From: a virus | Taxonomy: Duplodnaviria > Caudoviricetes | IMG/VR virus record: IMGVR_UViG_3300030325_000004 | Location: 1 to 55,554 of that record | Strand: one strand, 5' to 3' | Length of the DNA stretch: 55,554 bases | In this document: piece after piece, positions 2,260 through 44,618 of the stretch | How the letters are laid out: each line of letters begins with the position of its first letter | How positions within the stretch are numbered: the first letter of the stretch is position 1 | The notes under the pieces: model-generated | What the model saw: the letters and a program-made list of their open reading frames with translations, nothing else | Databases searched by the model: none | Told to the model about the DNA's origin: nothing | Position numbers and translations under genes: made by a program

Positions 2260-2445
2260 ATGATCCGAGCATTCAAGGCAGCCGTGATCCTGTTCTGCAT
2301 CGGCATGTGGAGCGCGTGGATTTGCGGGGCCATCATCGCCGCCAGCGACAACATCGCATACAGCCGAAAGAAGGCAGAGCAGGTCCGGCAATACAACGCC
2401 TCCATTGAGGCCATGACGAAGATTCAGAAGGAGATGCCGCGATGA
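2260..2445 (+). CDS. small membrane protein
   Basis: N-terminal hydrophobic helix; coupled to the next gene. Confidence 0.6.
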   Translation: MIRAFKAAVILFCIGMWSAWICGAIIAASDNIAYSRKKAEQVRQYNASIEAMTKIQKEMPR

Positions 2446-2825
2446 GCTGGCTCTGGTTCGCCATCATCCTAGCCGCCAGCCTCGCCGTGTGCGCCGGGAT
2501 CTACCGGGAGCAGGTTGAGCGGGACGAGGCGAGGCGACAGGAACGGGCGCGGGAACGCAGGGAACGCCTGGAGGATGCCGTCCGCGTCCTGGGAGAGCAC
2601 TACGCCGCAATGGTGGCCGTGGATGACGCCAAGGTGAAGGCATTCCGGGAGAACCGCGCCGAACTGAAGGCCCTCTGGGACGAGCAATACGCCCTGCTGA
2701 CAGGCTTCCGTAACGGCGACTTTGCTGAGTGGTATACGCATAGACTCTGGTGCCGGAACCGTGATCACTGGAGCTTCATCATCGCGGCGAAAGGCCGGAT
2801 CGTGCCGGATGAGATGAGCGCGTAA
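2442..2825 (+). CDS. membrane-anchored coiled-coil hypothetical protein; its stop codon lies in the left box of attC-1
   Basis: ATGA coupling, N-terminal TM helix, TAA inside GCGTAAC. Confidence 0.7.
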   Translation: MSWLWFAIILAASLAVCAGIYREQVERDEARRQERARERRERLEDAVRVLGEHYAAMVAVDDAKVKAFRENRAELKALWDEQYALLTGFRNGDFAEWYTHRLWCRNRDHWSFIIAAKGRIVPDEMSA

Positions 2826-2915
2826 CGGAGCCATTTAACCGGCCCCAGCGCAGGCCGGACCTTCAGAAACCACTTCGCACCCGCGCTGGGGTCCGAGTTG
2901 ATGCAGGGGTTAGGC
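2820..2915 (-). repeat. attC-like site 1 (96 bp)
   Basis: GCGTAAC...ttaaccggccccagcg / cgctgggg(t)ccg(a)gttga...GTTAGGC. Confidence 0.8.
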
Positions 2916-3242
2916 ATGGACGCAATCACTGATAAGGCCGCCATCAAGGCCATCCTGGACGACTACGACTGGCGGGAAGCGGTCAACTACGCATCCTGGA
3001 ACGCCGACGAAGTGGCCGAAATCCTGGCCATGGAAGAGGGCGAAAACGATGGGAATAACTGGCTCATGGTCGTGAAGCTCGAAGACGGGCGCTTCAGCTT
3101 CCTCTCTGCCGGTTGCGACTACACGGGCTGGGATTGCCAAGCCGGTGGAAGCAGCGACGAAAAGGGGAGTTTGGAAGAACTCATCCGAATGGGAATGGGG
3201 CAGGAGGACCGGGACAGGTTGGGATACAAGATCGACGCCTAA
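2916..3242 (+). CDS. cassette 1: hypothetical protein (SAGCDYTGWDC motif)
   Basis: ATG directly after GTTAGGC; TAA inside the next GCCTAAC. Confidence 0.8.
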   Translation: MDAITDKAAIKAILDDYDWREAVNYASWNADEVAEILAMEEGENDGNNWLMVVKLEDGRFSFLSAGCDYTGWDCQAGGSSDEKGSLEELIRMGMGQEDRDRLGYKIDA

Positions 3243-3331
3243 CGAAAAAAGTTCAGCGGCCAAGCCGCTTGAACACCCTTAACAATTTACAACACTTACG
3301 CGGCTTGGTCCGCTGGAACTAGAGGTTAGGC
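3237..3331 (-). repeat. attC-like site 2 (95 bp)
   Basis: GCCTAAC...gttcagcggccaagccgc / gcggcttgg(t)ccgctg(g)aac tagag GTTAGGC. Confidence 0.9.
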
Positions 3332-3334
3332 GTC

Positions 3335-3505
3335 ATGCAAATTAAGCAAGAACCATCATTCAAACCCGTGATCATTACGCTGAACACCCGTGAGGAAGCT
3401 GAAGATTTCTGGGCGATGCTACTAGATAAGGAATCAACACTAAAGGGCGGTCCCAAATCTCTAGCAATCAAGTTGAGCAACTGGTTCACGGAGCATTACC
3501 GTTGA
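3335..3505 (+). CDS. cassette 2: 56-aa hypothetical protein
   Basis: MQIKQEPSFKPVIITLNTREEAEDFW...HYR*; fills the space between sites 2 and 3; below the ORF-track cutoff. Confidence 0.75.
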   Translation: MQIKQEPSFKPVIITLNTREEAEDFWAMLLDKESTLKGGPKSLAIKLSNWFTEHYR

Positions 3506-3506
3506 C

Positions 3507-3606
3507 GCCTAACGACAGGCATAACCGGCCCTTGGGCCAGGAAGGACGAACCATGAACCAGAAAAACGAACAGGCCCAAGGGTCCGCGTTGAGCGGAGGG
3601 TTGGGT
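3507..3606 (-). repeat. attC-like site 3 (100 bp), RBS and ATG in loop
   Basis: GCCTAAC...aaccggcccttgggcc / ggcccaaggg(t)ccg(c)gtt...GTTGGGT. Confidence 0.85.
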
Positions 3607-3795
3607 GCGGCCACGGACCCTTGGTATCAGCACGAAGCAATTGATAGATGCCACGTCATTAATTGCATGATCTGGGACCACCTTGGAACACATCCATTTG
3701 TGTCCGCATATCCGGAGATCCAATCGCTAATCCTCAAGGCATCGGAACTACTGGGTGATGCGTACCAAAAAATGGGGCGGATAGAACTGAAGTAG
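3553..3795 (+). CDS. cassette 3: hypothetical protein
   Basis: AAGGA RBS and ATG inside site 3; ...HEAIDRCHVINCMIWDHLGTHP... Confidence 0.75.
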   Translation: MNQKNEQAQGSALSGGLGAATDPWYQHEAIDRCHVINCMIWDHLGTHPFVSAYPEIQSLILKASELLGDAYQKMGRIELK

Positions 3796-3796
3796 C

Positions 3797-3854
3797 GCCC
3801 AACTTCGGAGCTAGCTCGGCCCGATAGGGTCCGACGCTGAGCGACCAGTTGGGC
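3797..3854 (-). repeat. attC-like site 4 (58 bp)
   Basis: GCCCAAC...gctagctcggccc gata ggg(t)ccga(c)gct(g)agc gacca GTTGGGC. Confidence 0.9.
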
Positions 3855-3885
3855 CGCGAACCCCTAACCAATTGAAGGAGAAAAT

Positions 3886-4290
3886 ATGATCCAAGAATTT
3901 GTGAAGGCGTGGGAATCACGGAAGGGCGAAATCGAAGCGATGTTCCGGGCCAAGCACCCCGAGGATTATGCGGAGATCGTCAAGGCTGTAGTGATGATCT
4001 TGAACGCTGATTCGGAAGACTACGACCGGCCCGACCCGGAGCGGATTACCGGCATTGACCACGGCCATTACCAGGGCACTCTACTTTTCGTCATCGCCGG
4101 GTCGGGCTATCAACCCGATAACTTCTGGTTTGTGAAGGTGGGCTACGGGAGCTGCTCTGGATGCGACACCCTGGAGCGCATCAGGGACTATGACGATGCC
4201 CCGCCCTCAGATGAGCAGGTCGCGGACTACATGACGCTGGCCCTGCATATCGTCCAGGGATTGAAGCCGCTGGATGGTGAAACCGTCTGA
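3886..4290 (+). CDS. cassette 4: hypothetical protein (YQG...YGSCSGCD motif)
   Basis: AAGGAG RBS; Cys motif seen in small phage proteins. Confidence 0.85.
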   Translation: MIQEFVKAWESRKGEIEAMFRAKHPEDYAEIVKAVVMILNADSEDYDRPDPERITGIDHGHYQGTLLFVIAGSGYQPDNFWFVKVGYGSCSGCDTLERIRDYDDAPPSDEQVADYMTLALHIVQGLKPLDGETV

Positions 4291-4297
4291 ACGAGCG

Positions 4298-4392
4298 GCC
4301 CAACGAAAAGCTCACCGGCCCTGCCGCAGGTGAGCCACAACCCTTCAAATTTCGGACACGCGGCAGGGTCCGAGTGGAGCGCCCGGTTGGGC
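4298..4392 (-). repeat. attC-like site 5 (95 bp)
   Basis: GCCCAAC...gctcaccggccctgccgc / gcggcaggg(t)ccg(a)gtg(g)agc gcccg GTTGGGC. Confidence 0.9.
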
Positions 4393-4405
4393 GCGGGAGA
4401 TAAAA

Positions 4406-4642
4406 ATGAACTTTGGACAAGCTCTTGAAGCACTGAAGCTGGGATCAAAGGTGAGCCGTTCGGGATGGAACGGGAAGGGGCTCTGGCTGGAGCTGCAACA
4501 CCCGGACGAGAACAGCAAGATGACTCTGCCCTACATCTTCATCAACTATCCAGATGACGCGAAGACCACGCCCGGCGCACGGGTGCCCTGGTTGGCCTCG
4601 CAGACGGATGTGCTGGCCGAGGATTGGACCATCAACCTTTAG
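4406..4642 (+). CDS. tad2: cassette 5: DUF2829 / Tad2-like (Thoeris anti-defence 2) protein
   Basis: MNFGQALEALKxGxKVxRxGWNGKG...PWLASQTDVLAEDW is the DUF2829 signature. Confidence 0.85.
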   Translation: MNFGQALEALKLGSKVSRSGWNGKGLWLELQHPDENSKMTLPYIFINYPDDAKTTPGARVPWLASQTDVLAEDWTINL

Positions 4643-4643
4643 C

Positions 4644-4719
4644 GCCCAACTTTGGCATTAACCCGGCGGCGCAGCCGTCCGGTGAGCGAAGCGAACGCAG
4701 GTTGAATGCCCGGTTGGGC
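4644..4719 (-). repeat. attC-like site 6 (76 bp; identical to site 10)
   Basis: GCCCAAC tttg gcattaacc...ggtt(g)aat gcccg GTTGGGC. Confidence 0.88.
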
Positions 4720-4738
4720 GCGAACAATGGAGGAACAC

Positions 4739-4921
4739 ATGAAGCCCGAAATTGAAATCTACTTCGCCAAGTTCTACCGCCGGGATCCAGGTCTGGGGTG
4801 GCGGTTCACACTCTTCGAGATCTACAACTTCGATTCCGGAGCGGAGTGGGCACTATTCGCCATCGACTGGCAACCCGAAAACGCGCCCGATGGTAAGCGC
4901 CTAACGGTCAACCTGCTCTAG
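4739..4921 (+). CDS. cassette 6: hypothetical protein
   Basis: GGAGG RBS; MKPEIEIYFAKFYRRDPG...; TAG abuts site 7. Confidence 0.75.
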   Translation: MKPEIEIYFAKFYRRDPGLGWRFTLFEIYNFDSGAEWALFAIDWQPENAPDGKRLTVNLL

Positions 4922-4922
4922 C

Positions 4923-5020
4923 GCCCAACGATGCAGCTAACCGGCCCCGCCGTGGGCCAGAAAGGAACGATGTGAGCGAAGGCAACGCAGGCGGGGTCCG
5001 AGTTGATGCAAGGGTTGGGC
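4923..5020 (-). repeat. attC-like site 7 (98 bp), RBS and GTG in loop
   Basis: GCCCAAC...taaccggccccgcc / ggcgggg(t)ccg(a)gttg...GTTGGGC. Confidence 0.85.
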
Positions 5021-5211
5021 GCCCATCCTGCCCATTGTGCGGGAAGCCGCTGGAACGAGTGACGAATACCGGAGGCTGGATGAATGATGACCAGTTCGAT
5101 GCTTCAAAAGCTGGGGATTGGTTTTGCGAGTGCAGCGATAACGGGCGAGGGAATGCACCCTTCGCCTACTTCTGGACCCGCGAACTCGAATCCGGGCTCT
5201 TAGCCCACTGA
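4972..5211 (+). CDS. cassette 7: Zn-ribbon-like hypothetical protein
   Basis: AAAGGA RBS and GTG within site 7; CPLCG...WFCEC. Confidence 0.75.
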   Translation: MSEGNAGGVRVDARVGRPSCPLCGKPLERVTNTGGWMNDDQFDASKAGDWFCECSDNGRGNAPFAYFWTRELESGLLAH

Positions 5212-5212
5212 C

Positions 5213-5337
5213 GCCCAACGATAAAGCTGACCGGCCCAAGGGCCACCGAAACAACAGGAGGAGACATGCAAGACGAGCAGAACGCGGGAGAGCGGAAGAT
5301 GGAAGCCCTTGGGTCCGAGTTGAGCGACCGGTTGGGC
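5213..5337 (-). repeat. attC-like site 8 (125 bp), RBS and ATG in loop
   Basis: GCCCAAC...gctgaccggcccaagggc / gcccttggg(t)ccg(a)gtt(g)agc gaccg GTTGGGC. Confidence 0.87.
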
Positions 5338-5604
5338 GGTGCTCTCGAAGAGTCGCTGGTGGACACGCTTGTTACCAAGTGCGAATCCCTTCAGGCCCGC
5401 GTGAAAGAGCTTGAGGGGAAGCTGGCGGAAGAGGAACACAACCACCTTGGAACACTCGGCCAGCGTGACCAGTGCTATGAATGGGCCGACAAATTCGCCG
5501 ATGCCATCGCCGCGCATTTCCGGGAGGACATTGGCGAGCACTCGAACATGAACGACCCCTGGCGGAACGCCCTTGACTTGATCGAAGGGACATTCTGCCG
5601 GTGA
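5266..5604 (+). CDS. cassette 8: coiled-coil protein with an IGEHSNxNxPW domain (resembles Ead/Ea22-type phage proteins)
   Basis: AGGAGG RBS inside site 8; WADKFADAIAAHFREDIGEHSNMNDPWRNAL. Confidence 0.75.
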   Translation: MQDEQNAGERKMEALGSELSDRLGGALEESLVDTLVTKCESLQARVKELEGKLAEEEHNHLGTLGQRDQCYEWADKFADAIAAHFREDIGEHSNMNDPWRNALDLIEGTFCR

Positions 5605-5605
5605 C

Positions 5606-5703
5606 GCCCAACGGAGCCAGTTCACCGGACCCGCAGCCGGTGAACCACAACCTTTCAAATATCGGAATTGCTGCGGGGTCCGAGTGGAACTGGATGGTTG
5701 GAC
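5606..5703 (-). repeat. attC-like site 9 (98 bp)
   Basis: GCCCAAC...ccagttcaccggacccgcagc / gctgcggggtccg(a)gtg(g)aactgg...GTTGGAC; loop resembles site 5. Confidence 0.85.
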
Positions 5704-5725
5704 GCGATGCCTGGAGGAGAACGCG

Positions 5726-5902
5726 ATGAGTTGTGACCGACGATGTTTCGACAAAGAGAGCAAGTGGTACGGGCACGAAGACTGCAACACCTGCCCTGGA
5801 GCTGATGTATGGAGGCCCAGGAACAAGCCGGGGCAGGTGCAGAAGCAAGAGGACCCCGACCCCTGGATGGGTAGCGACCTGGCCGACGAAGGGGACAAGT
5901 AG
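5726..5902 (+). CDS. cassette 9: Cys-rich small protein
   Basis: GGAGGAG RBS; MSCDRRC...CNTC. Confidence 0.7.
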   Translation: MSCDRRCFDKESKWYGHEDCNTCPGADVWRPRNKPGQVQKQEDPDPWMGSDLADEGDK

Positions 5903-5903
5903 C

Positions 5904-5979
5904 GCCCAACTTTGGCATTAACCCGGCGGCGCAGCCGTCCGGTGAGCGAAGCGAACGCAGGTTGAATGCCCGGTTGGGC
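5904..5979 (-). repeat. attC-like site 10 (76 bp; identical to site 6)
   Basis: 5900-5997 is identical to 4640-4737 (98 bp). Confidence 0.9.
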
Positions 5980-5997
5980 GCGAACAATGGAGGAACA

Positions 5998-6186
5998 GTG
6001 CCGAGAATTAAGGTTGAATTTGAAGTCGAAATCCCCTCCGATGTGCGGATCAACGACGACAACCTGGAAGAGTGGCTGCGCTTCTGGTTGAACGACAACG
6101 GCGACATGAGTATGGAGAACCCACTGGATGATCTGGTGGGTGAGGTTGAACCCGTGTTCGGGACTTTTGAATGGGAATGGCGATAG
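5998..6186 (+). CDS. cassette 10: small acidic protein
   Basis: GGAGG RBS and GTG; very Asp/Glu-rich. Confidence 0.75.
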   Translation: MPRIKVEFEVEIPSDVRINDDNLEEWLRFWLNDNGDMSMENPLDDLVGEVEPVFGTFEWEWR

Positions 6187-6187
6187 C

Positions 6188-6253
6188 GCCCAACTTCGGA
6201 GCTAGCTCGGCCACGGCGCAGCCGGGGTCCGACGCTGAGCGACTTGGTTAGGG
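6188..6253 (-). repeat. attC-like site 11 (66 bp; same family as site 4)
   Basis: GCCCAACttcggagctagctcggcc...ggg(t)ccga(c)gct(g)agc gacttg GTTAGGG. Confidence 0.88.
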
Positions 6254-6273
6254 CGCTGAACAACGGAGGATGG

Positions 6274-6858
6274 ATGAACTGGCAGGATCGGATCGAAAAC
6301 TACAAGAGAGAGACAGGCTTTCCAGAGGCACTTTTTGTGGGGGCCGATGGCCGCGTCGTTGGGACCTGGATCATGGGGAACGACTACCGCGTGAAGTCCA
6401 CCTATTACGGCGGCTACCCGGCTGGATACCTGCGACGTATCAAATCCCTGTTCCCGGAGAAGGCCAGTGTCTTACATCTGTTTAGCGGGAAGGTGGACAC
6501 GGCAACCTTTCCAGGTAAGACAGTGGATATCAACCCCGACAACCAGCCTGATTTCTTGGATGATGCCCAACACCTTACGGGCGTCCCCGTCGAGGATTTC
6601 GATCTAGTGTTGGCAGATCCGCCGTATTCCGTCGAAGATTGCGAGCACTACCAGACCAGCATGATCAAGCGAAACGTGGTCATGAAGGCCCTTGGAAGGC
6701 GCTTGAAACCCGGAGCCCACGTTGTCTGGCTCGACCAGGTGCTACCCATGTATCGCAAGGATCAATTCGCCCTTGAGGCGGCTATCGGAATGCAGAAATC
6801 CACAAACCATCGGTTCCGAATCATCACGATTTTCCGAAAGCTAGACGAAGCGCCCTAA
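6274..6858 (+). CDS. cassette 11: DNA N6-adenine/N4-cytosine methyltransferase-like protein
   Basis: VLHLFSG (motif I-like) and VLADPPY (motif IV); TAA inside CCCTAAC. Confidence 0.8.
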   Translation: MNWQDRIENYKRETGFPEALFVGADGRVVGTWIMGNDYRVKSTYYGGYPAGYLRRIKSLFPEKASVLHLFSGKVDTATFPGKTVDINPDNQPDFLDDAQHLTGVPVEDFDLVLADPPYSVEDCEHYQTSMIKRNVVMKALGRRLKPGAHVVWLDQVLPMYRKDQFALEAAIGMQKSTNHRFRIITIFRKLDEAP

Positions 6859-6875
6859 CTAGCGCTAGGCGTACT
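6850..6875 (-). other. terminal core site of the array, possible attI-like site
   Basis: Minus strand reads gtac GCCTAGC gcta GTTAGGGcgc: a core box plus a degenerate inverted box, with no attC hairpin. Confidence 0.45.
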
Positions 6876-7020
6876 AATAAATTTACCCTTTACGCACCGC
6901 AAAACCAATAACCCCGTCTAGCCACAACGCCGGGTGGTTCGCCTAAACAACTAAACATGCCGGGTTGGGTCGGCCTTGACACGCCTAACAAATTGCCCAA
7001 CATTATGGGTGAGGTGATCG

Positions 7021-7470
7021 ATGCCGACAATCATGGTGAAAGGCCGGGAGGTAATCCTTGATGAAGAGGATATCCCGCTGCTTGAGTCCAGATCTTGGTT
7101 CTGGACTCCACAGGGTTACTTGGCAACATCAATCCCCATCAGCAAGGGGAAGCGCCGGACGGTATGCTTCCACCGGCTAGTGCTTGATGATCCGCCAACA
7201 CCAGCGGTAGACCACATCAACAGGGTTAAGCACGATAACCGTAGGTGCAATCTCCGCGCTTGTTCTGACCGAGAAAACAATCTTAACCGTCGGGGTTGGA
7301 CCAACCCAGAAAAGGGCGTTTCCTTCCGGCGCGGGAAGTGGCAAGTTATTGTCCGGGAGGGTAGCAAAATAAGATGGCTAGGGGCCTACAAAGATAAGGA
7401 TGAAGCCGTGCGGGTTGCCACCACTTATTTTGTAGCTCGGGACAACTCACCAACCGACCTAACACCATAA
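7021..7470 (+). CDS. free-standing HNH homing endonuclease (HNH plus AP2-like DNA-binding domain)
   Basis: HRLVL...VDHINRVKHDNRRCNLR...N; KGVSFRRGKWQ...WLGAY. Confidence 0.9.
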   Translation: MPTIMVKGREVILDEEDIPLLESRSWFWTPQGYLATSIPISKGKRRTVCFHRLVLDDPPTPAVDHINRVKHDNRRCNLRACSDRENNLNRRGWTNPEKGVSFRRGKWQVIVREGSKIRWLGAYKDKDEAVRVATTYFVARDNSPTDLTP

Positions 7471-8121: not shown

Positions 8122-8808
8122 ATGACCAACGAACCGAAGCACCCGTGCCCTGAACGCGCCGCGCCCCTGGTGCCGTCCATGCCCGAATGCGATGTCTTGA
8201 GATACGGACAAACCGTTGTGATTGAAGGGCTGCGAGACTACGCCCGCCAGTGTGCCGAGATCGCCCAGGCCCAGGCGCAACGTGCGGATGGGGCGGAGCG
8301 CCGAGCCGAATACTGGAAGGCTGAACACAACGCCGCGAACGCAGAGATCGACAAACTCCACGCCACCCTCGCCCAGCGTGACCGCGAGGTGCTGGCGCTG
8401 CGGGAGGCCGCCAAAGAATCGGCTATCGCCTGGGAAGTTTGCCGATCTATCCATGAAACCTGGGCCAAGGGCAAGGACCCGCTGTATAAAACAAGACATC
8501 TCGATTTTGTGCGTGCCGCAGACAAAGCTCGCGAAGCCCTCGCCTCCACCGCGCAGGCCGGGGCAGAGGCCGAGCGCAAGATTAAAGAGTGGTGTGTCGA
8601 ATCCGCATGGAAATGGTGGAACGATCGCAGCCCCGAGCGGCCCTGTGGGCGAGATACCCTTGAGGCCGCCATCCTCGGCACGGGCGGGGAGGCCGTAGAC
8701 CTATCCAGATGCCCCAAGTGCGGAGGCCCTGCCGACAACGGGCACGACCGATGTCTGCCGCCGAATCCCTACTTCTGCACCAAATGCGAGAGCGGGGAGG
8801 AGCGATGA
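8122..8808 (+). CDS. coiled-coil hypothetical protein with C-terminal Zn finger
   Basis: AGGAG RBS; CPKCGGPADNGHDR...YFCTKC. Confidence 0.75.
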   Translation: MTNEPKHPCPERAAPLVPSMPECDVLRYGQTVVIEGLRDYARQCAEIAQAQAQRADGAERRAEYWKAEHNAANAEIDKLHATLAQRDREVLALREAAKESAIAWEVCRSIHETWAKGKDPLYKTRHLDFVRAADKAREALASTAQAGAEAERKIKEWCVESAWKWWNDRSPERPCGRDTLEAAILGTGGEAVDLSRCPKCGGPADNGHDRCLPPNPYFCTKCESGEER

Positions 8809-8975: not shown

Positions 8976-9176
8976 ATGATCCGAGGCTATTGCTTTTGGT
9001 GTGGACGCCACAAGTACCTCATGCGGGGACCAGACGGCAGGGAAGTGTGCGGTTTCTGCGTGGAAGAAGATGATTACATCAACCACCTGCACCGGAATGC
9101 CCGTATCGACCGGCGCGAGGCCAAGAAGGTCGCCAAGGGGCACCGCAAGCCCACGATGGTCTACGATGCCGATTGA
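8976..9176 (+). CDS. small Zn-finger protein
   Basis: AAGGAG RBS; CFWC...CGFC. Confidence 0.6.
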   Translation: MIRGYCFWCGRHKYLMRGPDGREVCGFCVEEDDYINHLHRNARIDRREAKKVAKGHRKPTMVYDAD

Positions 9177-9411
9177 TTACCGTTGCACCAGGGGAAGGGC
9201 CGTTGTCCGCGTACTGGCATACCGCCCCGCAAACGAGCCCATGCCTGACGACTGCCTGCATGTAGTGATCCAAGCCATGAATGGCAAGGAGCCTATTGCA
9301 GAAGACCCTCTGCATGTAGAAGACTGCCGGGTTCTGGATCTAGCCAGAGAGCTTCACCTAATGCGGAATGAGGGATGGGAAACCGTGGCGAACAGGGCCA
9401 TGTTATTGTAA
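9166..9411 (+). CDS. hypothetical protein
   Basis: Overlapping start MPIDYRC, co-oriented. Confidence 0.5.
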   Translation: MPIDYRCTRGRAVVRVLAYRPANEPMPDDCLHVVIQAMNGKEPIAEDPLHVEDCRVLDLARELHLMRNEGWETVANRAMLL

Positions 9412-20897: not shown

Positions 20898-20975
20898 TGG
20901 TCGCGCCTGATGGATTCGAACCATCACTGGATAGCTCCTCAAGCTATTGCCTCTGCCAAGTTGGGCTAAGGCGCG
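20898..20975 (-). tRNA. tRNA-Leu(GAG), short variable loop
   Basis: Cloverleaf, atagc-tt GAG ga-gctat, TTCGAA, encoded CCA. Confidence 0.9.
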
Positions 20976-20979
20976 ATGT

Positions 20980-21057
20980 TGGTGCCCCTCGAAGGATTCG
21001 AACCTTCACTATACTGATTCTGAATCAGTCCTCTCTGCCAAGTTGGAGTAGAGGGGC
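20980..21057 (-). tRNA. tRNA-Leu(CAG), short variable loop
   Basis: actga-tt CAG aa-tcagt; encoded CCA. Confidence 0.9.
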
Positions 21058-21059
21058 CT

Positions 21060-21137
21060 TGGTCCCGGACCTGGGATTCGAACCCAGACTGAATCGTTTT
21101 TGAAAAGATCTCCTCTGCCTAATTGGGATAGACCGGG
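21060..21137 (-). tRNA. tRNA-Leu(CAA), short variable loop
   Basis: atctt-tt CAA aa-acgat; one mismatch each in the anticodon and acceptor stems; CCA. Confidence 0.8.
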
Positions 21138-21138
21138 A

Positions 21139-21226
21139 TGGTGCTGGCGGCGAGGATTCGAACCTGCGGTGCTTTTTACGGACCAGATTTACAGTCTGGT
21201 GCATTCGGCCACTTTGCTACGCCAGC
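21139..21226 (-). tRNA. tRNA-Tyr(GTA)
   Basis: ccaga-ct GTA aa-tctgg; long variable region; CCA. Confidence 0.9.
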
Positions 21227-21228
21227 GT

Positions 21229-21305
21229 TGGTGCCAACCGTGGGAGTCGAACCCACCCTTAGCGGGGTTTAAAGCCGCTGCCTCTACCTCATGGGCTAGG
21301 CTGGC
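21229..21305 (-). tRNA. tRNA-Leu(TAA), short variable loop
   Basis: gcggc-tt TAA ac-cccgc by register with the other Leu tRNAs; CCA. Confidence 0.8.
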
Positions 21306-21309
21306 AATA

Positions 21310-21397
21310 TGGAGGAAGATGTAGGATTCGAACCCACGGAGACTTGCGCCCCTTCGGTTTTCAAGACCGACGCAATAGACCGCTCTGCCAATCTTCC
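21310..21397 (-). tRNA. tRNA-Ser(TGA)
   Basis: tcggt-ct TGA aa-accga; long variable arm; CCA. Confidence 0.92.
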
Positions 21398-42864: not shown

Positions 42865-44140
42865 TTAGTAGACGCGGACACGAACCATCGCTTCCGGCTT
42901 GACCGTCTTGAAACCATAGACATTCAGGCCGCGAACCAGGGTGCCGAAAGTGCGCGGGTTGGGCAGCATCTCGGGCTTCTGGAACTGCGAAGCAAAGGCA
43001 AGGGCGCTGGAGTGACCCACGAGGCACTCCGAGGGGGCGCCGACGGTGGCACCATTGGCATTGAGGATGTTGTTGCTGATGTACACCTTCATGCCGTCGA
43101 TCTCACCGACATAGCCATTGCGCAGGGGAGACTTATCATCGCCCGTGATGAGGACCTGCTTCAGATCGGAGAGCTTCAGGTAGTTGGCGAACTGCGGGGT
43201 AATCACGGCCCAGCGGTTCCCATCGCGGGGAACATTGTTCGCATCAAGCACCTGACCGGCATTGAGCAGGGGGGTGATGTAGGTGGCGGTGGCCAGCGAA
43301 GAAAGCTGGAGGGGAGTCGTGACGCCAATGCTCGTGCCCACGGTATTGGCGGTGGCAACATCGGCATACACGGACTGGAGCACAGACTGGTCAATGGCGA
43401 CCTTCATCTGCATCGCAGCATCTTCCGTCAACTTCTCGATGATGGCGATGTCGCTCTGGTACTGATCGACATAGGTCACATTGAAGTTGTAACCCTTGGC
43501 CTTGTCGATCAGGAGAGTGATCGACTCATCGGACACATCCTGGACCGGCAGATCCGCATTCACCACATGATCGAAAATCTGGATCGTGGGGATCTTGCGA
43601 ATGACAACCTTATCGCCAGCGCCCTTGATATCCGTTCGTGTTATCGCTAGGCTCTTTATCCTAACTTCTACGGCTCTCACCGTAGACCAGACTATATCTT
43701 ATACCCGATTCTTGTAGGGACTCGGCTTGGTTTCCGAGTAGTGGAGAATGCTAAGGTAGTCCACCCAACAAAAGTCAAGTACCCCCGCGTTCGTGGCATC
43801 GTAGTCTTCGGCACCACCCGGTAAGACCCAATACTAGTCGTTGAACCTTCCGCAAGTTTCCTAGCGGCTTGGCTGCTGATTGCCCAATCCACGATCTTTT
43901 CGACCGTCGCGCTTGTCTTTTCAAACTTCGCTGTGGTGATCATGGCTCTAAGGGGTTTCCAGCAATTAACGGGGTTTAAGGAAGGCTCAATACAGAGGGT
44001 CAACCTTCCCAGTCATGGTTGGCGATAGCAGGGACGACAGACGCAGCATAGAACTTGGCCTGCATCTTGGCGGAGTAAATAGTGGGGACAAAGACGCCAG
44101 CAGCAAGGTTGGCACCAACGCGAGAAACAGAGAGACCCAT
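42865..44140 (-). CDS. major capsid protein (P22 coat-like), spliced: exon 1 44140-44003, exon 2 43632-42865, 301 aa
   Basis: MGLSV...FVPTIYSAKMQAKFY...NHDWEG | DIKGAGDKVVIRKIP...RGLNVYG; AGGAG RBS; the exons join in frame. Confidence 0.92.
43633..44002 (-). ncRNA. group I self-splicing intron (370 nt, no ORF)
   Basis: Exon ends in U with P1 GGAAGGU/GCCUUCC; P AAUUGCUGGAAA, Q AAUCAGCAG, R UUCAACGACUA, S AAGAUAUAGUCU; terminal G. Confidence 0.93.
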
Positions 44141-44150
44141 GTTTTACTCC

Positions 44151-44618
44151 TTAAAAAGCCTGATAGCCCTTGACCACGAACTGATAAACACCAGTGGTCA
44201 CGGGGGTTGCGCCAAGGGTAACGCGGACGGCATTGGCAGTAGAATAGAGCTTGCCACCGCTCCAGACATTGTTGACCGCAGGCGTGGTCGCGTAATCCGT
44301 GAGGATGTAAGCGCCGTCGGCGGCGGTAATGCCGGTCCCACTCGAAGCATTCAGGGTGGTGATGAAGCCGGTCGCGGAATCAGCGTCACCAACGGTAAAC
44401 GCCTGGGCCGTGCCAGCGGTAATCTGCTTGGCGAACACATTCTCCACCACGAAACCGGCGGGGAGAGTGATGATGTCAGCAGTCTTGCTGCCAGCAGAGG
44501 CAGCAGTGCCAGTGAACTTGGCAAAGTCGAGAGTCTTGGACAGAATCTGGAACCCAAGATCATGCGACTGGAACTTGCCATCAGCTCCACTGGTCAGATC
44601 ATAATCAGCAGCAGCCAT
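44151..44618 (-). CDS. capsid decoration/cement-like protein
   Basis: Beta-rich, LPAG..V...VGD...GF pattern; adjacent to the capsid gene. Confidence 0.6.
   Translation of the reverse strand: MAAADYDLTSGADGKFQSHDLGFQILSKTLDFAKFTGTAASAGSKTADIITLPAGFVVENVFAKQITAGTAQAFTVGDADSATGFITTLNASSGTGITAADGAYILTDYATTPAVNNVWSGGKLYSTANAVRVTLGATPVTTGVYQFVVKGYQAF

What the first reader, a model, noticed from the sequence alone, without database searches (positions are those of the whole stretch)
2820..6859. Integron-type cassette array built into a phage early region, with no integrase
Seen: 11 imperfect hairpins of 58-125 bp, each bounded by RYYYAAC...GTTRRRY with inner L-type boxes and 1-3 bulged bases, alternate one-to-one with 11 small ORFs. 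Ten of the 11 cassette ORFs stop in, or 1 nt before, the next box. Known: this is attC/cassette architecture, normally a feature of bacterial chromosomes and plasmids, and is recombined by IntI. Seen: I recognise no tyrosine recombinase in this apparently complete genome, and the cargo looks like phage accessory genes rather than bacterial ones. Inference: the phage uses the host's integron integrase to gain, drop and reorder early genes, i.e. a phage gene-shuffling system.
Basis: partly seen in the sequence, partly recalled or inferred. Interest (0 to 1): 0.95.

Follow-up and report, generated by a model that had tools for sequence, protein, structure and literature searches.

The report
Integron gene-cassette array inside a phage
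A phage with no recombinase of its own keeps eleven small early genes, including anti-defence genes, as integron-type cassettes whose recombination sites match those of its probable bacterial hosts, so it probably borrows the host enzyme to swap these genes.

Summary
Eleven imperfect hairpins (2820-6254, 58-125 bp) alternate with eleven small + strand genes. Ten of the eleven genes stop in, or 1 nt before, the next core box.

The hairpins are true attC sites. A covariance model built only from attC sites next to integron integrase genes in Holophagaceae (Geothrix, Holophaga) chromosomes finds exactly these 11 sites, all on the + strand (E 4e-21 to 4e-3). Nothing else in the 55 kb scores better than E=1 except the reverse strands of those same sites.

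The window holds no tyrosine or serine recombinase. IntI is above cut-off in 40 of 61 sampled genomes of the probable host family.

The sites are inverted relative to the genes: each hairpin belongs to the gene downstream of it and often carries that gene's ribosome site and start codon.

Three results point to site-specific turnover:
- Core boxes flanking a gene match each other better than boxes within a hairpin.
- A related phage has the array at the same place with entirely different genes.
- Contigs from four independent metagenomes show cassettes present or absent, with breaks at the left boxes.

Action of host IntI in trans is inferred, not shown.

Integrase-less attC clusters (CALINs) in phages are already published (Qi et al. 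2023, 2-3 sites each). This scan has also noted integron-like arrays in other phages, run by different enzymes. I rate this a new variant of a known kind.

The parts
2442..2825 (+). c0, a conserved backbone gene. Its TAA stop lies inside the first core box and marks the left border of the array.
   Evidence: The homologue in related phage G008 (56-59% aa identity) ends the same way, with TAA inside GCCTAAC. No Pfam hit.
2820..2915 (+). attC site 1 (bottom strand on +), boxes GCGTAAC / GTTAGGC
   Evidence: R1 50.9 bits, E 3.7e-12; fold
2916..3242 (+). cassette gene c1 (108 aa). ATG directly follows the right box; TAA lies inside the next left box.
   Evidence: no family hit
3237..3331 (+). attC site 2
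   Evidence: R1 59.9 bits, E 1.1e-14
3335..3505 (+). cassette gene c2 (56 aa)
   Evidence: 82% aa identity to an ORF in the attC array of locus L048, an Acidobacteria MAG. The unit site 2 + c2 is held at about 100% identity in 4 of 4 metagenome runs laid.
3507..3606 (+). attC site 3; its loop holds the RBS and ATG (3553) of c3
   Evidence: R1 48.1 bits, E 2.2e-11; sequence
3553..3795 (+). cassette gene c3 (80 aa); starts inside the loop of site 3
   Evidence: phrog_5142, E 2.5e-5
3797..3854 (+). attC site 4 (58 bp, short type)
   Evidence: R1 32.6 bits, E 5e-7
3886..4290 (+). cassette gene c4 (134 aa); the only one that stops 7 nt before the next box
   Evidence: phrog_12588, E 2.9e-15. Its viral relative L179 (56% identity) has no attC sites.
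4298..4392 (+). attC site 5
   Evidence: R1 65 bits, E 4e-16
4406..4642 (+). cassette gene c5, Tad2-like (Thoeris anti-defence 2 / DUF2829)
   Evidence: PF11195, E 2.3e-24, 86 bits; blastn hit to a DUF2829 gene of phage PaBG
4644..4719 (+). attC site 6. It is identical to site 10 within a 98-bp module (4640-4737) that also holds the RBS.
   Evidence: R1 18.8 bits, E 0.004; sequence
4739..4921 (+). cassette gene c6 (about 60 aa from the ATG behind GGAGG; the frame is open from 4706)
   Evidence: no family hit
4923..5020 (+). attC site 7; its loop holds the RBS and GTG (4972) of c7
   Evidence: R1 57.6 bits, E 4.7e-14
4972..5211 (+). cassette gene c7 (79 aa, zinc-ribbon-like CxxC...CxC). It has no start codon after the right box, so it must start in the loop.
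   Evidence: weak PF21302 hit, E 3e-4
5213..5337 (+). attC site 8 (125 bp); its loop holds the RBS and ATG (5266) of c8
   Evidence: R1 82.9 bits, E 3.6e-21
5266..5604 (+). cassette gene c8 (112 aa)
   Evidence: phrog_6628, E 5e-8
5606..5703 (+). attC site 9
   Evidence: R1 57.4 bits, E 5.5e-14. A nearly identical site lies in L048.
5726..5902 (+). cassette gene c9 (58 aa)
   Evidence: The unit 5606-5910 is held in run X10 with unlike sequence on both sides.
5904..5979 (+). attC site 10 (copy of site 6)
   Evidence: R1 18.8 bits, E 0.004
5998..6186 (+). cassette gene c10 (62 aa, GTG start behind GGAGG)
   Evidence: run X4 holds 5882-6194 and then diverges
6188..6254 (+). attC site 11 (short type); right box GTTAGGGC
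   Evidence: R1 22.9 bits, E 2.8e-4
6274..6858 (+). cassette gene c11, a DNA methyltransferase (DPPY motif); TAA lies inside the terminal box
   Evidence: phrog_3816, E 4e-47. Zero cover at 6408-6741 in all 4 runs, although the right flank is identical in them. The 86% relative in L180 is also bounded by attC sites.
6852..6859 (+). terminal bare core box GCCCTAAC (no hairpin), complementary to the right box of site 11; right border of the array
   Evidence: Contigs of 4 runs start to match here, at 6856/6857. G008 ends its array with a bare GCCCAAC.
6860..7020 (+). non-coding stretch with further core-like heptamers (6937, 6983, 6995); a candidate attI-like region standing where attI and the intI promoter stand in the bacterial integrons
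   Evidence: It shares 9 nine-mers (e.g. TGGTTCGCCTA, TAGGCGTACT) with attI regions of 4 Holophagaceae integrons; 0 of 2042 control windows reach 9. The GGTTCGCCTAA motif is also in G008.

Best explanation
This is a genuine integron cassette array, a cluster of attC sites lacking an integrase (CALIN). It belongs to the attC family used by the chromosomal integrons of Holophagaceae (Geothrix/Holophaga, Acidobacteriota) and sits at a fixed place in the early region of a phage of those bacteria.

Shown:
- The 11 hairpins belong to that attC family and have the canonical geometry: 7-bp R box, 5-nt unpaired spacer, 3 bp, bulged G, 6 bp, bulged T.
- The + strand, which is the coding strand, is the recombinogenic bottom strand.
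- Each gene is flanked by a matched pair of half-boxes.
- Relatives and environmental variants differ by whole units that break at the left boxes.

Inferred:
- During infection the phage + strand folds when single-stranded.
- The host's own integron integrase, which the phage lacks, cuts at RYYYAA|C of the left box. It excises cassettes as circles, inserts cassettes at another attC or at the attI-like right end, and so adds, drops and reorders accessory genes such as a Tad2-like anti-Thoeris gene and a methyltransferase.

Because the genes lie on the bottom strand, each cassette is 'attC, then gene'. The attC supplies or precedes the ribosome-binding site and start codon. The whole row can be read as one early transcript, since no promoter or terminator was found inside it.
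For: (1) Site family.
- The motif from the 3' arm hit at least 120 stretches in GTDB genomes, overwhelmingly Geothrix/Holophagaceae, in dense arrays.
- 6 of 6 such genomes tested have an integron integrase at 451-466 bits, against a cut-off of 265. So do 40 of 61 sampled genomes of that family.
- Model R1 was built from 36 attC sites beside intI. It finds the 11 window sites at full length on the + strand, E 3.6e-21 to 4e-3. The only other matches below E=1 are the reverse strands of these sites.

(2) Geometry and strand.
- True class 1 attC sites have their two bulges in the 5' arm of the ORF strand.
- In the Holophagaceae integrons the bulged arm is on the bottom strand relative to intI, and ORFs lie on the other strand in 52 of 57 intervals.
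- In the window the bulged arm is on the ORF strand.

(3) Covariation. In 56 phage-borne sites, 94.3% of cells are paired and 212 cells are compensatory against 55 in shuffles (0 of 500 shuffles reach this).

(4) Cassette signature (mismatches within a hairpin versus across a gene):
- window 6 versus 2
- L024 8 versus 1
- L012 3 versus 0
- bacterial L161 4 versus 0
- The methyltransferase gene has matched boxes in each of two phages, but the boxes differ between them: GTTAGGGC...GCCCTAAC here and GTTAGAC...GTCTAAC in L180.

(5) Turnover.
- Relative G008 has the c0 homologue ending in the first box, 14 sites, a bare end box, and none of c1-c11.
- Logan contigs from four studies hold the right flank at 100% identity but never c11. 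They hold site 2 + c2 and site 9 + c9 as units, with unlike sequence beyond the left boxes.

(6) The pattern is general in phages.
- R1 finds 48 sites in 17 of 20 viral loci.
- 0 of 19 of those virus records has IntI.
- ORFs stop at the left box on the same strand at 35 of 48 sites, against 13 of 48 for the opposite arrangement.

(7) A G008 cassette ORF has homologues inside chromosomal integron arrays, in the same inverted orientation.
Against: - No experiment or read shows IntI acting on this DNA. No circular cassette or excision junction was seen, because only contigs were available, and joints with fewer than 30 letters on a side were not trusted.
- The host is inferred only from the attC family.
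- R1's training sites were picked with a motif taken from the window, so its 3' arm is partly circular evidence. IntegronFinder and HattCI could not be run.
- Among 146 fetched loci, no segment of at least 250 nt and at least 88% identity is shared between a viral and a bacterial locus, so no recent phage-host exchange was caught.
- Hairpin-gene linkage is not absolute. The 98-bp hairpin+RBS module precedes two unrelated genes, and homologues of c2 and c11 elsewhere have unrelated hairpins. Some other recombination therefore also acts.
- All genes are inverted relative to the integron norm, which departs from the classical expression logic (Pc promoter, attI-proximal expression).
Confidence: 0.7

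Rival explanations
1. The sites descend from attC sites, but the shuffling is done by general or phage-encoded homologous recombination between the conserved arms and boxes. This would resemble the promoter-stem-loop (PeSL) modules that mediate modular shuffling in T4-type phages. IntI would play no part.
For: The 98-bp hairpin+RBS module is identical before two unrelated genes. Homologues of c2 and c11 in other arrays have unrelated hairpins on both sides. The phage encodes an exonuclease (phrog_284). PeSL shuffling is a documented precedent (PMC2839356 and PMC4122927, seen as search listing and abstract starts only).
Against: Homologous exchange in the longest conserved stretch, the 3' arm and right box, would uncouple the right box from the next left box, yet these stay matched while boxes within hairpins do not. 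The same gene carries different but matched box pairs in two phages, which fits selection on a circular intermediate. The bulged letters and arm sequence are kept identical to those of the host sites, which recombination by homology alone does not require.
Confidence: 0.15
2. The array is a fossil: an integron fragment captured once. The hairpins are now kept for RNA-level roles in the polycistronic early transcript (processing sites, stabilisers, translation starts), with no ongoing mobility.
For: RBS and start codons sit inside three loops (3553, 4972, 5266). There is no promoter or + strand terminator inside the array. Because the genes lie on the bottom strand, every hairpin is part of the mRNA.
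Against: Gene content is completely different in G008 at the same borders. Near-identical genomes in four metagenomes differ by presence or absence of cassettes. An RNA hairpin would select for complementarity within the hairpin, but the outer boxes are mismatched within hairpins and matched across genes. An RNA role could still coexist with recombination.
Confidence: 0.1
3. The array is an artefact: either a bacterial integron piece misassembled into a phage contig, or a bacterial fragment called viral.
For: Repeated attC sites can mislead assemblers. Relative G008 breaks inside its array at both contig ends.
Against: The array is internal and flanked on both sides by phage genes. The record has portal, terminase, helicase and virion proteins and is rated 97% complete. 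The same flanks bracket an array in G008. Three source-study runs hold 99% of the stretch's sampled words. Complete virus records with terminal repeats also carry such sites.
Confidence: 0.03

Closest known systems
Clusters of attC sites lacking an integrase (CALINs) in phage genomes (Qi, Rajabal, Ghaly, Tetu and Gillings 2023, Front Microbiol, PMC9892861; abstract, methods 2.1, section 3.4 and table/figure legends read)
   Same: attC sites and gene cassettes occur in virulent phages with no intI. Methyltransferase cassettes are present. The idea that phages draw on the cassette pool is the same, and a bacterial IntI (IntI1) recombined 5 of 6 phage attC sites tested there.
   Different: The CALINs shown there have 2-3 predicted sites and come from 10,705 NCBI phage genomes; only gene direction is discussed. 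This array has 11 sites. They can be tied to the chromosomal integron family of a named host lineage, and the array lies at a conserved locus with matched-box and population evidence of turnover. All genes are inverted, with translation signals inside or directly after the attC. The paper's supplementary tables, which list all 17 CALINs, could not be opened, so I cannot say that no similar case is listed there.
Sedentary chromosomal integrons, here those of Geothrix/Holophaga found here (and, from general knowledge, the Vibrio cholerae superintegron)
   Same: Same attC family and geometry, one gene per cassette, matched half-boxes around each gene, a bare core box and attI-like sequence at the integrase-proximal end, and long arrays.
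   Different: There is no intI. The replicon is a phage. The genes lie on the bottom strand (10 of 11 sites here against 9 of 55 in the bacterial arrays by the stop-at-box test). attC loops are variable and short (58-125 bp) rather than a uniform 124-131 bp. An HNH endonuclease gene stands where intI stands.
PeSL regulatory cassettes of T4-type phages (Arbiol et al. 2010, PMC2839356; Comeau et al. 2014, PMC4122927; listing and abstract starts only)
   Same: Repeated stem-loop modules between small accessory genes in a hyperplastic early region of a phage, proposed to mediate modular gene shuffling. The 98-bp hairpin+RBS module here behaves like such a unit.
   Different: PeSLs are promoter-terminator motifs recombined by homology. 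These sites are attC sites of a site-specific system, with bulged bases, R/L boxes and matched boxes across genes.

Membership tests
integron attC site | Outer inverted core boxes RYYYAAC ... GTTRRRY (R''/R') | tested here: met
   Nine of 11 sites fit on both sides; site 1 has GCGTAAC on the left and site 11 reads GTTAGGG(C) on the right.
integron attC site | Imperfect hairpin with an unpaired central spacer, an inner L box, extrahelical bases on one strand, and a variable terminal loop | tested here: met
   Folds. The R1 consensus reads 7 bp, 5 nt unpaired, 3 bp, bulged G, 6 bp (with one extra A), bulged T, then the stem. This is the same order as the class 1 attC sites read. Loops make total lengths of 58-125 bp.
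integron attC site | Scores with a covariance model of attC sites | tested here: met
   With R1, built from 36 attC sites beside intI in four Holophagaceae integrons, 11 of 11 sites score at E 3.6e-21 to 4e-3. Rfam has no hit here. The IntegronFinder and HattCI models were not available, so that exact test was not run.
integron attC site | Structure conserved by compensatory change | tested here: met
   56 phage-borne sites: 20 of 26 pairs have double changes, and the covariation score is 0.374 against 0.097 in shuffles (0 of 500 reach it). The alignment was fitted to the model.
integron attC site | Recombined by an integron integrase on the folded bottom strand | not testable with these tools
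   Needs a recombination assay.
integron gene cassette | One ORF per unit, and half-boxes flanking the ORF that are complementary (the mark of a circular intermediate) | tested here: met
   11 ORFs for 11 sites. Gene-flanking mismatches total 2 over 10 pairs, against 6 over 11 within hairpins. The terminal GCCCTAAC pairs with GTTAGGGC of site 11.
integron gene cassette | ORF on the top strand, followed by its attC | tested here: not met
   The ORFs lie on the bottom strand and each attC precedes its gene. Inverted cassettes are known in chromosomal integrons (general knowledge), but not as the rule.
complete integron | intI gene next to the array | tested here: not met
   No hit to PF00589 or TIGR02249 at E<=1 in six frames of the record.
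complete integron | attI site at the integrase-proximal end | tested here: inconclusive
   A bare box followed by 160 nt that shares 9 nine-mers with four bacterial attI regions; 0 of 2042 controls reach 9. Function is untested, and some of the shared words contain the core box itself.
CALIN (cluster of attC sites lacking an integrase) | At least two attC sites close together with no intI nearby | tested here: met
   11 sites in 3.4 kb and no intI anywhere in the 55.5-kb record.

The most novel reading that the evidence does not exclude
Holophagaceae phages and their hosts share one integron machinery but split the cassette pool by strand. Phage cassettes are built 'attC first, gene on the bottom strand', with their own ribosome site in or behind the attC. 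They would therefore be expressed in a phage early transcript but lie silent, antisense to the cassette promoter, when parked in a host chromosomal integron. Host cassettes would be silent in the phage for the same reason. The host integron would then act as an involuntary bank of phage counter-defence genes, and the phage, which has an attI-like end but no intI, would hijack the SOS-inducible host integrase during infection to withdraw and reorder them.
Probability: 0.3. Interest if true: 0.88.

Novelty: new variant of a known kind. Interest (0 to 1): 0.74.

Why it matters
Integrons are viewed as bacterial devices, and recent work shows that their cassettes store anti-phage defences (bioRxiv 10.1101/2024.07.02.601686, passages read). 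This locus shows the mirror image. A phage holds counter-defence and other accessory genes as cassettes of the host's own integron family, without paying for a recombinase.

If host IntI acts on it, three things follow:
- Phage early regions can evolve by site-specific cassette exchange among phages and with host chromosomes.
- Integron integrases have a cost to the host that has not been considered.
- Cassette orientation becomes a readable marker of which party a cassette serves.

The case is also directly testable. The sites, the crossover point and the recombinogenic strand are all predicted, cultured Geothrix strains with IntI exist, and at least 17 further viral contigs carry the same sites.

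Tried and rejected
- Rfam has no family matching these sites. It found only tRNAs and a group I intron elsewhere.
- blastn of the array against the phage collection found only the Tad2/DUF2829 gene in PaBG and one other phage.
- Searches for relatives through c0 found nothing with the single protein, only G008 with the two-protein alignment, and nothing in metagenome contigs.
- An exact 29-mer of the right flank was not found in metagenome or viral contigs.
- An all-against-all census of shared segments among 146 loci gave 222 segments. Of their left ends, 131 lie at left boxes and 82 are far from any detected site; 66 right ends lie at right boxes. Because bacterial attC sites are nearly identical to one another, this pattern fits a crossover in either box and cannot place it. 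No segment involved a viral locus.
- G-T versus A-C counts in paired columns (36 versus 27) give no strand signal.
- The c2 comparison with L048 and the c11 comparison with L180 do not show which hairpin travels with the gene, because both flanking hairpins differ. The metagenome contigs do show this for site 2 + c2 and site 9 + c9.
- Joints with fewer than 30 letters on a side were not used.
- No listed run is on record as RNA, so nothing can be said about expression.
- The HNH gene at 7021-7470 was considered as a possible recombination enzyme and set aside. G008 has no such gene at that place, and HNH_3 genes are commonly homing endonucleases (general knowledge).
- Four literature searches found no paper on attC arrays in phages of Acidobacteria or on inverted-gene phage cassettes. 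Only Qi et al. 2023 treats attC sites in phages.

Full report
WHAT THE WINDOW IS. The window is a whole IMG/VR virus record of 55,554 bp, linear, rated 97% complete by CheckV.
- It encodes a portal, a large terminase, a DnaB-like helicase, an exonuclease and large virion proteins.
- It has five tRNAs and a group I intron.
- G+C is 55%.
- Six-frame searches found no tyrosine recombinase (PF00589; TIGR02249) and no serine recombinase (PF00239). The control genomes all gave hits with both tyrosine recombinase profiles, and 13 of 14 did with the serine recombinase profile.

THE OBSERVATION. The sequence shows eleven imperfect hairpins between 2820 and 6254.
- Each is bounded by a left box of type RYYYAAC and a right box of type GTTRRRY.
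- Lengths are 58-125 bp and single-strand DNA folding energies are -14 to -26 kcal/mol.
- They alternate one-to-one with eleven + strand ORFs. Ten or eleven of these ORFs have a GGAG-type ribosome site before the start.
- Ten of the eleven ORFs stop inside, or 1 nt before, the next left box. The last stops inside a bare eighth-base-extended box, GCCCTAAC, at 6852-6859. c4 stops 7 nt early.
- The heptamers are concentrated in 2-8 kb of the window.

ARE THEY attC SITES? Rfam has no attC model and IntegronFinder is not on hand, so I looked for the sites' relatives.
- A motif from the conserved 3' arm matched 20 stretches of viral contigs.
- The genome hits are overwhelmingly Geothrix, Holophaga and other Holophagaceae, in dense arrays of up to ten copies per 6.6 kb.
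- All six such genomes examined have a full-length integron integrase scoring 451-466 bits against NCBIfam TIGR02249, whose cut-off is 265. In a wider sample of that family, 40 of 61 genomes do; many of the rest are small, incomplete assemblies.
- In four genomes I fetched the DNA beside intI. It holds arrays of 124-131-bp sites with the same arms as the window sites.
- From 36 of these chromosomal sites, and none from the phage, I built covariance model R1.
- With filters off, R1 finds exactly the eleven window sites at full length with the boundaries given above. All are on the + strand, at 82.9 to 18.8 bits (E 3.6e-21 to 4e-3). The next matches are the reverse strands of the same sites (E 0.0042 and worse). 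Everything else in the 55 kb has E above 1.
- One caveat applies: the training sites were located with a motif taken from the window, so agreement in that 3' arm is partly built in. The left arm, the spacing and the boxes were not selected.
- Aligned to the model, 56 phage-borne sites keep 94.3% of cells paired, with 212 compensatory cells against 55 in shuffles (0 of 500 shuffles reach this). Sliding the partner by one column drops pairing to 45%.

GEOMETRY AND STRAND. As a reference for true attC sites I read the class 1 integron carried by a P1 phage record.
- In the strand that carries the cassette genes, the two bulged bases lie in the 5' arm. The bottom strand therefore has them in its 3' arm, in the order bulged T, 6 bp, bulged G, 3 bp, 5 unpaired nt, 7-bp R box.
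- The Holophagaceae sites and the window sites have the same order in the arm that carries the motif, with one extra bulged A. The bulged letters are T in 52 of 53, A in 37 of 47 and G in 55 of 56 phage-borne sites.
- In the bacterial integrons this arm lies on the strand that is 'bottom' relative to intI. The cassette ORFs lie on the other strand in 52 of 57 intervals, which is the canonical arrangement.
- In the window the arm lies on the + strand, the strand of the genes. That these genes are real and on the + strand is shown by c5 (Tad2-like, PF11195, E 2e-24), c11 (DNA methyltransferase, phrog_3816, E 4e-47), c3, c4 and c8 (PHROG hits) and c2 (82% identical to an ORF elsewhere). The long - strand ORFs have no hits.
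- The sites are therefore inverted relative to the genes. An integron integrase cuts the bottom strand in the R' box (established knowledge of attC recombination). Here the crossover would lie at RYYYAA|C of the LEFT box, and a cassette is 'C, hairpin, right box, gene, RYYYAA'.
- This explains why three genes (c3, c7, c8) have their ribosome site and start codon inside the loop of the preceding hairpin. c7 has no possible start after the right box.

THE CASSETTE SIGNATURE. In integron arrays the half-boxes on either side of a gene come from one circular cassette and should pair with each other. The two boxes of one hairpin come from neighbouring cassettes and need not pair.
- I counted mismatches:

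| Array | Within hairpins | Across genes |
|---|---|---|
| Window | 6 over 11 hairpins | 2 over 10 genes |
| Viral L024 | 8 | 1 |
| Viral L012 | 3 | 0 |
| Chromosomal integron L161 | 4 | 0 |

- The right box of site 11 (GTTAGGGC) pairs with the terminal bare box (GCCCTAAC), not with its own left box.
- The methyltransferase cassette gives an independent example. Its closest relative, 86% aa identity in viral locus L180, is the only one of 47 loci fetched for relatives of c4 and c11 (46 of them for c11) that has R1 sites. There the gene is flanked by GTTAGAC and GTCTAAC. The pair is matched in each phage but differs between them.
- This is what selection on a circular, refolding intermediate predicts. 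Selection on an RNA hairpin in the array would not predict it.

RELATIVES AND POPULATIONS.
- Virus record G008 (41.7 kb) shares early genes with the window at 40-62% aa identity.
- Its c0 homologue (59% identity) ends with TAA inside a GCCTAAC box exactly as c0 does here. Fourteen R1 sites follow on the same strand, split over the two contig ends.
- Its array ends with a bare GCCCAAC box and a non-coding stretch that shares GGTTCGCCTAA with the window. A homologue of window gene 8122-8808 comes next.
- None of c1-c11 is present in G008. The borders are the same and the content is wholly different.
- One search of public runs found three runs of the probable source study holding 99% of the words. 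Runs of other studies hold 21-39%.
- I laid Logan contigs of four runs from four studies. The results were:
  - The right flank 6857-7400 is held with no differences in X4, X5 and X10, and from 6856 in X6. The c11 interior (6408-6741) has no cover in any of them.
  - In X4 the letters before 6857 are the end of a different cassette.
  - The unit 'left box, site 2, c2, left box' is held at about 100% identity in all four runs (3236-3515, 3241-3515, 3239-3531, 3255-3513). In X5 it is preceded by 27 unlike letters. In X10 it is followed, directly after the left box, by a hairpin of another type.
  - The unit 5606-5910 (site 9 + c9) in X10 has unlike sequence on both sides.
  - In X4, 5882-6194 runs through site 10 and c10 and diverges after the left box of site 11.
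- Near-identical genomes therefore differ by whole cassettes. The breaks lie at left boxes, and the hairpin stays with the gene downstream of it.
- These are short contigs. They show presence and junctions, not frequencies or absence.

HOW GENERAL IT IS.
- R1 finds 48 sites in 17 of the 20 viral loci, usually several per locus on one strand.
- None of the 19 virus records behind them has an integron integrase, and 2 have weak hits to other tyrosine recombinases. Among records rated complete or carrying terminal repeats, G015, G017, G022 and G025 have no tyrosine recombinase hit; G007 is one of the two with weak hits.
- A same-strand ORF of at least 40 aa stops at the left box at 35 of 48 viral sites. 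An opposite-strand ORF stops at the right box at 13 of 48. In the chromosomal integrons the figures are 9 and 22 of 55.
- A six-site array of the phage type, holding the c2 homologue and a near-copy of window site 9, lies in an Acidobacteria MAG. It is on a different contig from that genome's intI, between a DarB-like giant gene and tail-fibre-like and portal-like genes, so it is probably a prophage or other mobile element.
- A 49-aa cassette ORF of G008 has homologues (50-75% identity) in seven bacterial loci, including the array beside intI in Geothrix alkalitolerans. In the five of those loci where I know the site strand, it lies on the same strand as the sites. Phage-type cassettes therefore also sit in host integrons.

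THE RIGHT END.
- In the bacterial integrons, read on the bottom strand, the array ends with a bare core box. The attI region and then intI follow.
- The window has the same layout, with an HNH endonuclease gene (PF13392) in the place and orientation of intI.
- The 177 nt after the terminal box share nine 9-mers with the four bacterial attI regions, for example TGGTTCGCCTA and TAGGCGTACT. None of 2042 control windows of the phage reaches nine; their mean is 0.54 and maximum 8.
- Some shared words include the core box itself, so I call this suggestive only.

MECHANISM.
- Shown: the site family, geometry, strand, matched boxes, a conserved locus with turnover, breaks at left boxes, no recombinase in the phage, and IntI in the probable host family.
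- Inferred: host IntI acts in trans on the folded + strand of phage DNA during infection, excising and inserting cassettes. New cassettes enter at the attI-like right end, which fits c11, the end cassette, being the one missing from otherwise identical genomes. The row is read as one early transcript, since no sigma-70-like promoter or + strand terminator was found inside it.
- Evidence that other processes also act: the identical 98-bp hairpin+RBS module before two unrelated genes (4640-4737 and 5900-5997), and unrelated hairpins around the homologues of c2 and c11.

COMPARISON WITH WHAT IS KNOWN.
- By the usual definition this is a CALIN.
- Qi et al. 2023 (PMC9892861; abstract, methods 2.1, section 3.4 and legends read) reported 17 CALINs in 10,705 NCBI phage genomes. 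The figured ones have 2-3 sites. They showed that IntI1 recombines five of six tested phage attC sites, and they noted methyltransferase cassettes.
- The idea that phages carry attC sites is therefore in print.
- New here: the size of the array; the explicit tie to the chromosomal integron family of a host lineage; the consistent inversion, with translation signals in or behind the attC; the conserved locus with an attI-like end; the matched-box and population evidence for ongoing turnover; and a Tad2-like anti-defence gene as cargo.
- I found no paper on this in four searches.
- Earlier notes of this scan describe integron-like arrays in other phages, mostly of Bacteroidota and run by Xer-like recombinases. 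One notes genes 'facing the other way'. Those are other systems on other DNA, and I did not test them.

VERDICT. I rate it a new variant of a known kind, with interest 0.74.

Noticed in passing
window 43668-44037 (-): A group I intron (Rfam RF00028, 69.4 bits, E 1.4e-15) lies between ORFs 42865-43680 and 44151-44618 of the structural module, presumably inside the capsid gene, as another first-stage note says.
   Followed up: no
window 20901-21397 (-): A tight cluster of five tRNA genes by Rfam. Another first-stage note counts six and calls them Leu/Ser/Tyr only.
   Followed up: no
window 4326-4365 and 5636-5675; also L166 around 4040-4010 (-) and L048 1050-1085: The loops of sites 5 and 9, of one G008 site and of one L048 site share a conserved stretch, CCACAACC.T.CAAAT.TCGGA, even though loops are otherwise free to vary. 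It could be a promoter or a protein-binding element carried inside the attC.
   Followed up: no
window 7021-7470 (+): An HNH_3 endonuclease gene (PF13392, E 1e-5) stands exactly where intI stands in the bacterial integrons, behind a near-consensus TTGACA element. Relative G008 has no gene there.
   Followed up: partly
L157, L158, L159, L161 versus L176/L177: The chromosomal integron arrays of Holophagaceae have 53-58% G+C, close to the phage's 55%. Ordinary chromosome around the L048 array has 62-67%.
   Followed up: no
L176 8131-14751 (+), L177 692-2287: In an Acidobacteria MAG, a 2206-aa DarB-like methylase/helicase gene and a homologue of window gene 9001-9411 lie just upstream of a six-site phage-type attC array, with tail-fibre-like and portal-like genes downstream. 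This is probably a prophage carrying the same kind of array.
   Followed up: partly
L161 9504-9601: Inside the chromosomal integron beside intI of Geothrix alkalitolerans, one attC is short (98 bp) and has a GGAGG...ATG in its loop on the bottom strand, like the phage sites. It is a candidate phage-type cassette parked in a host integron.
   Followed up: partly
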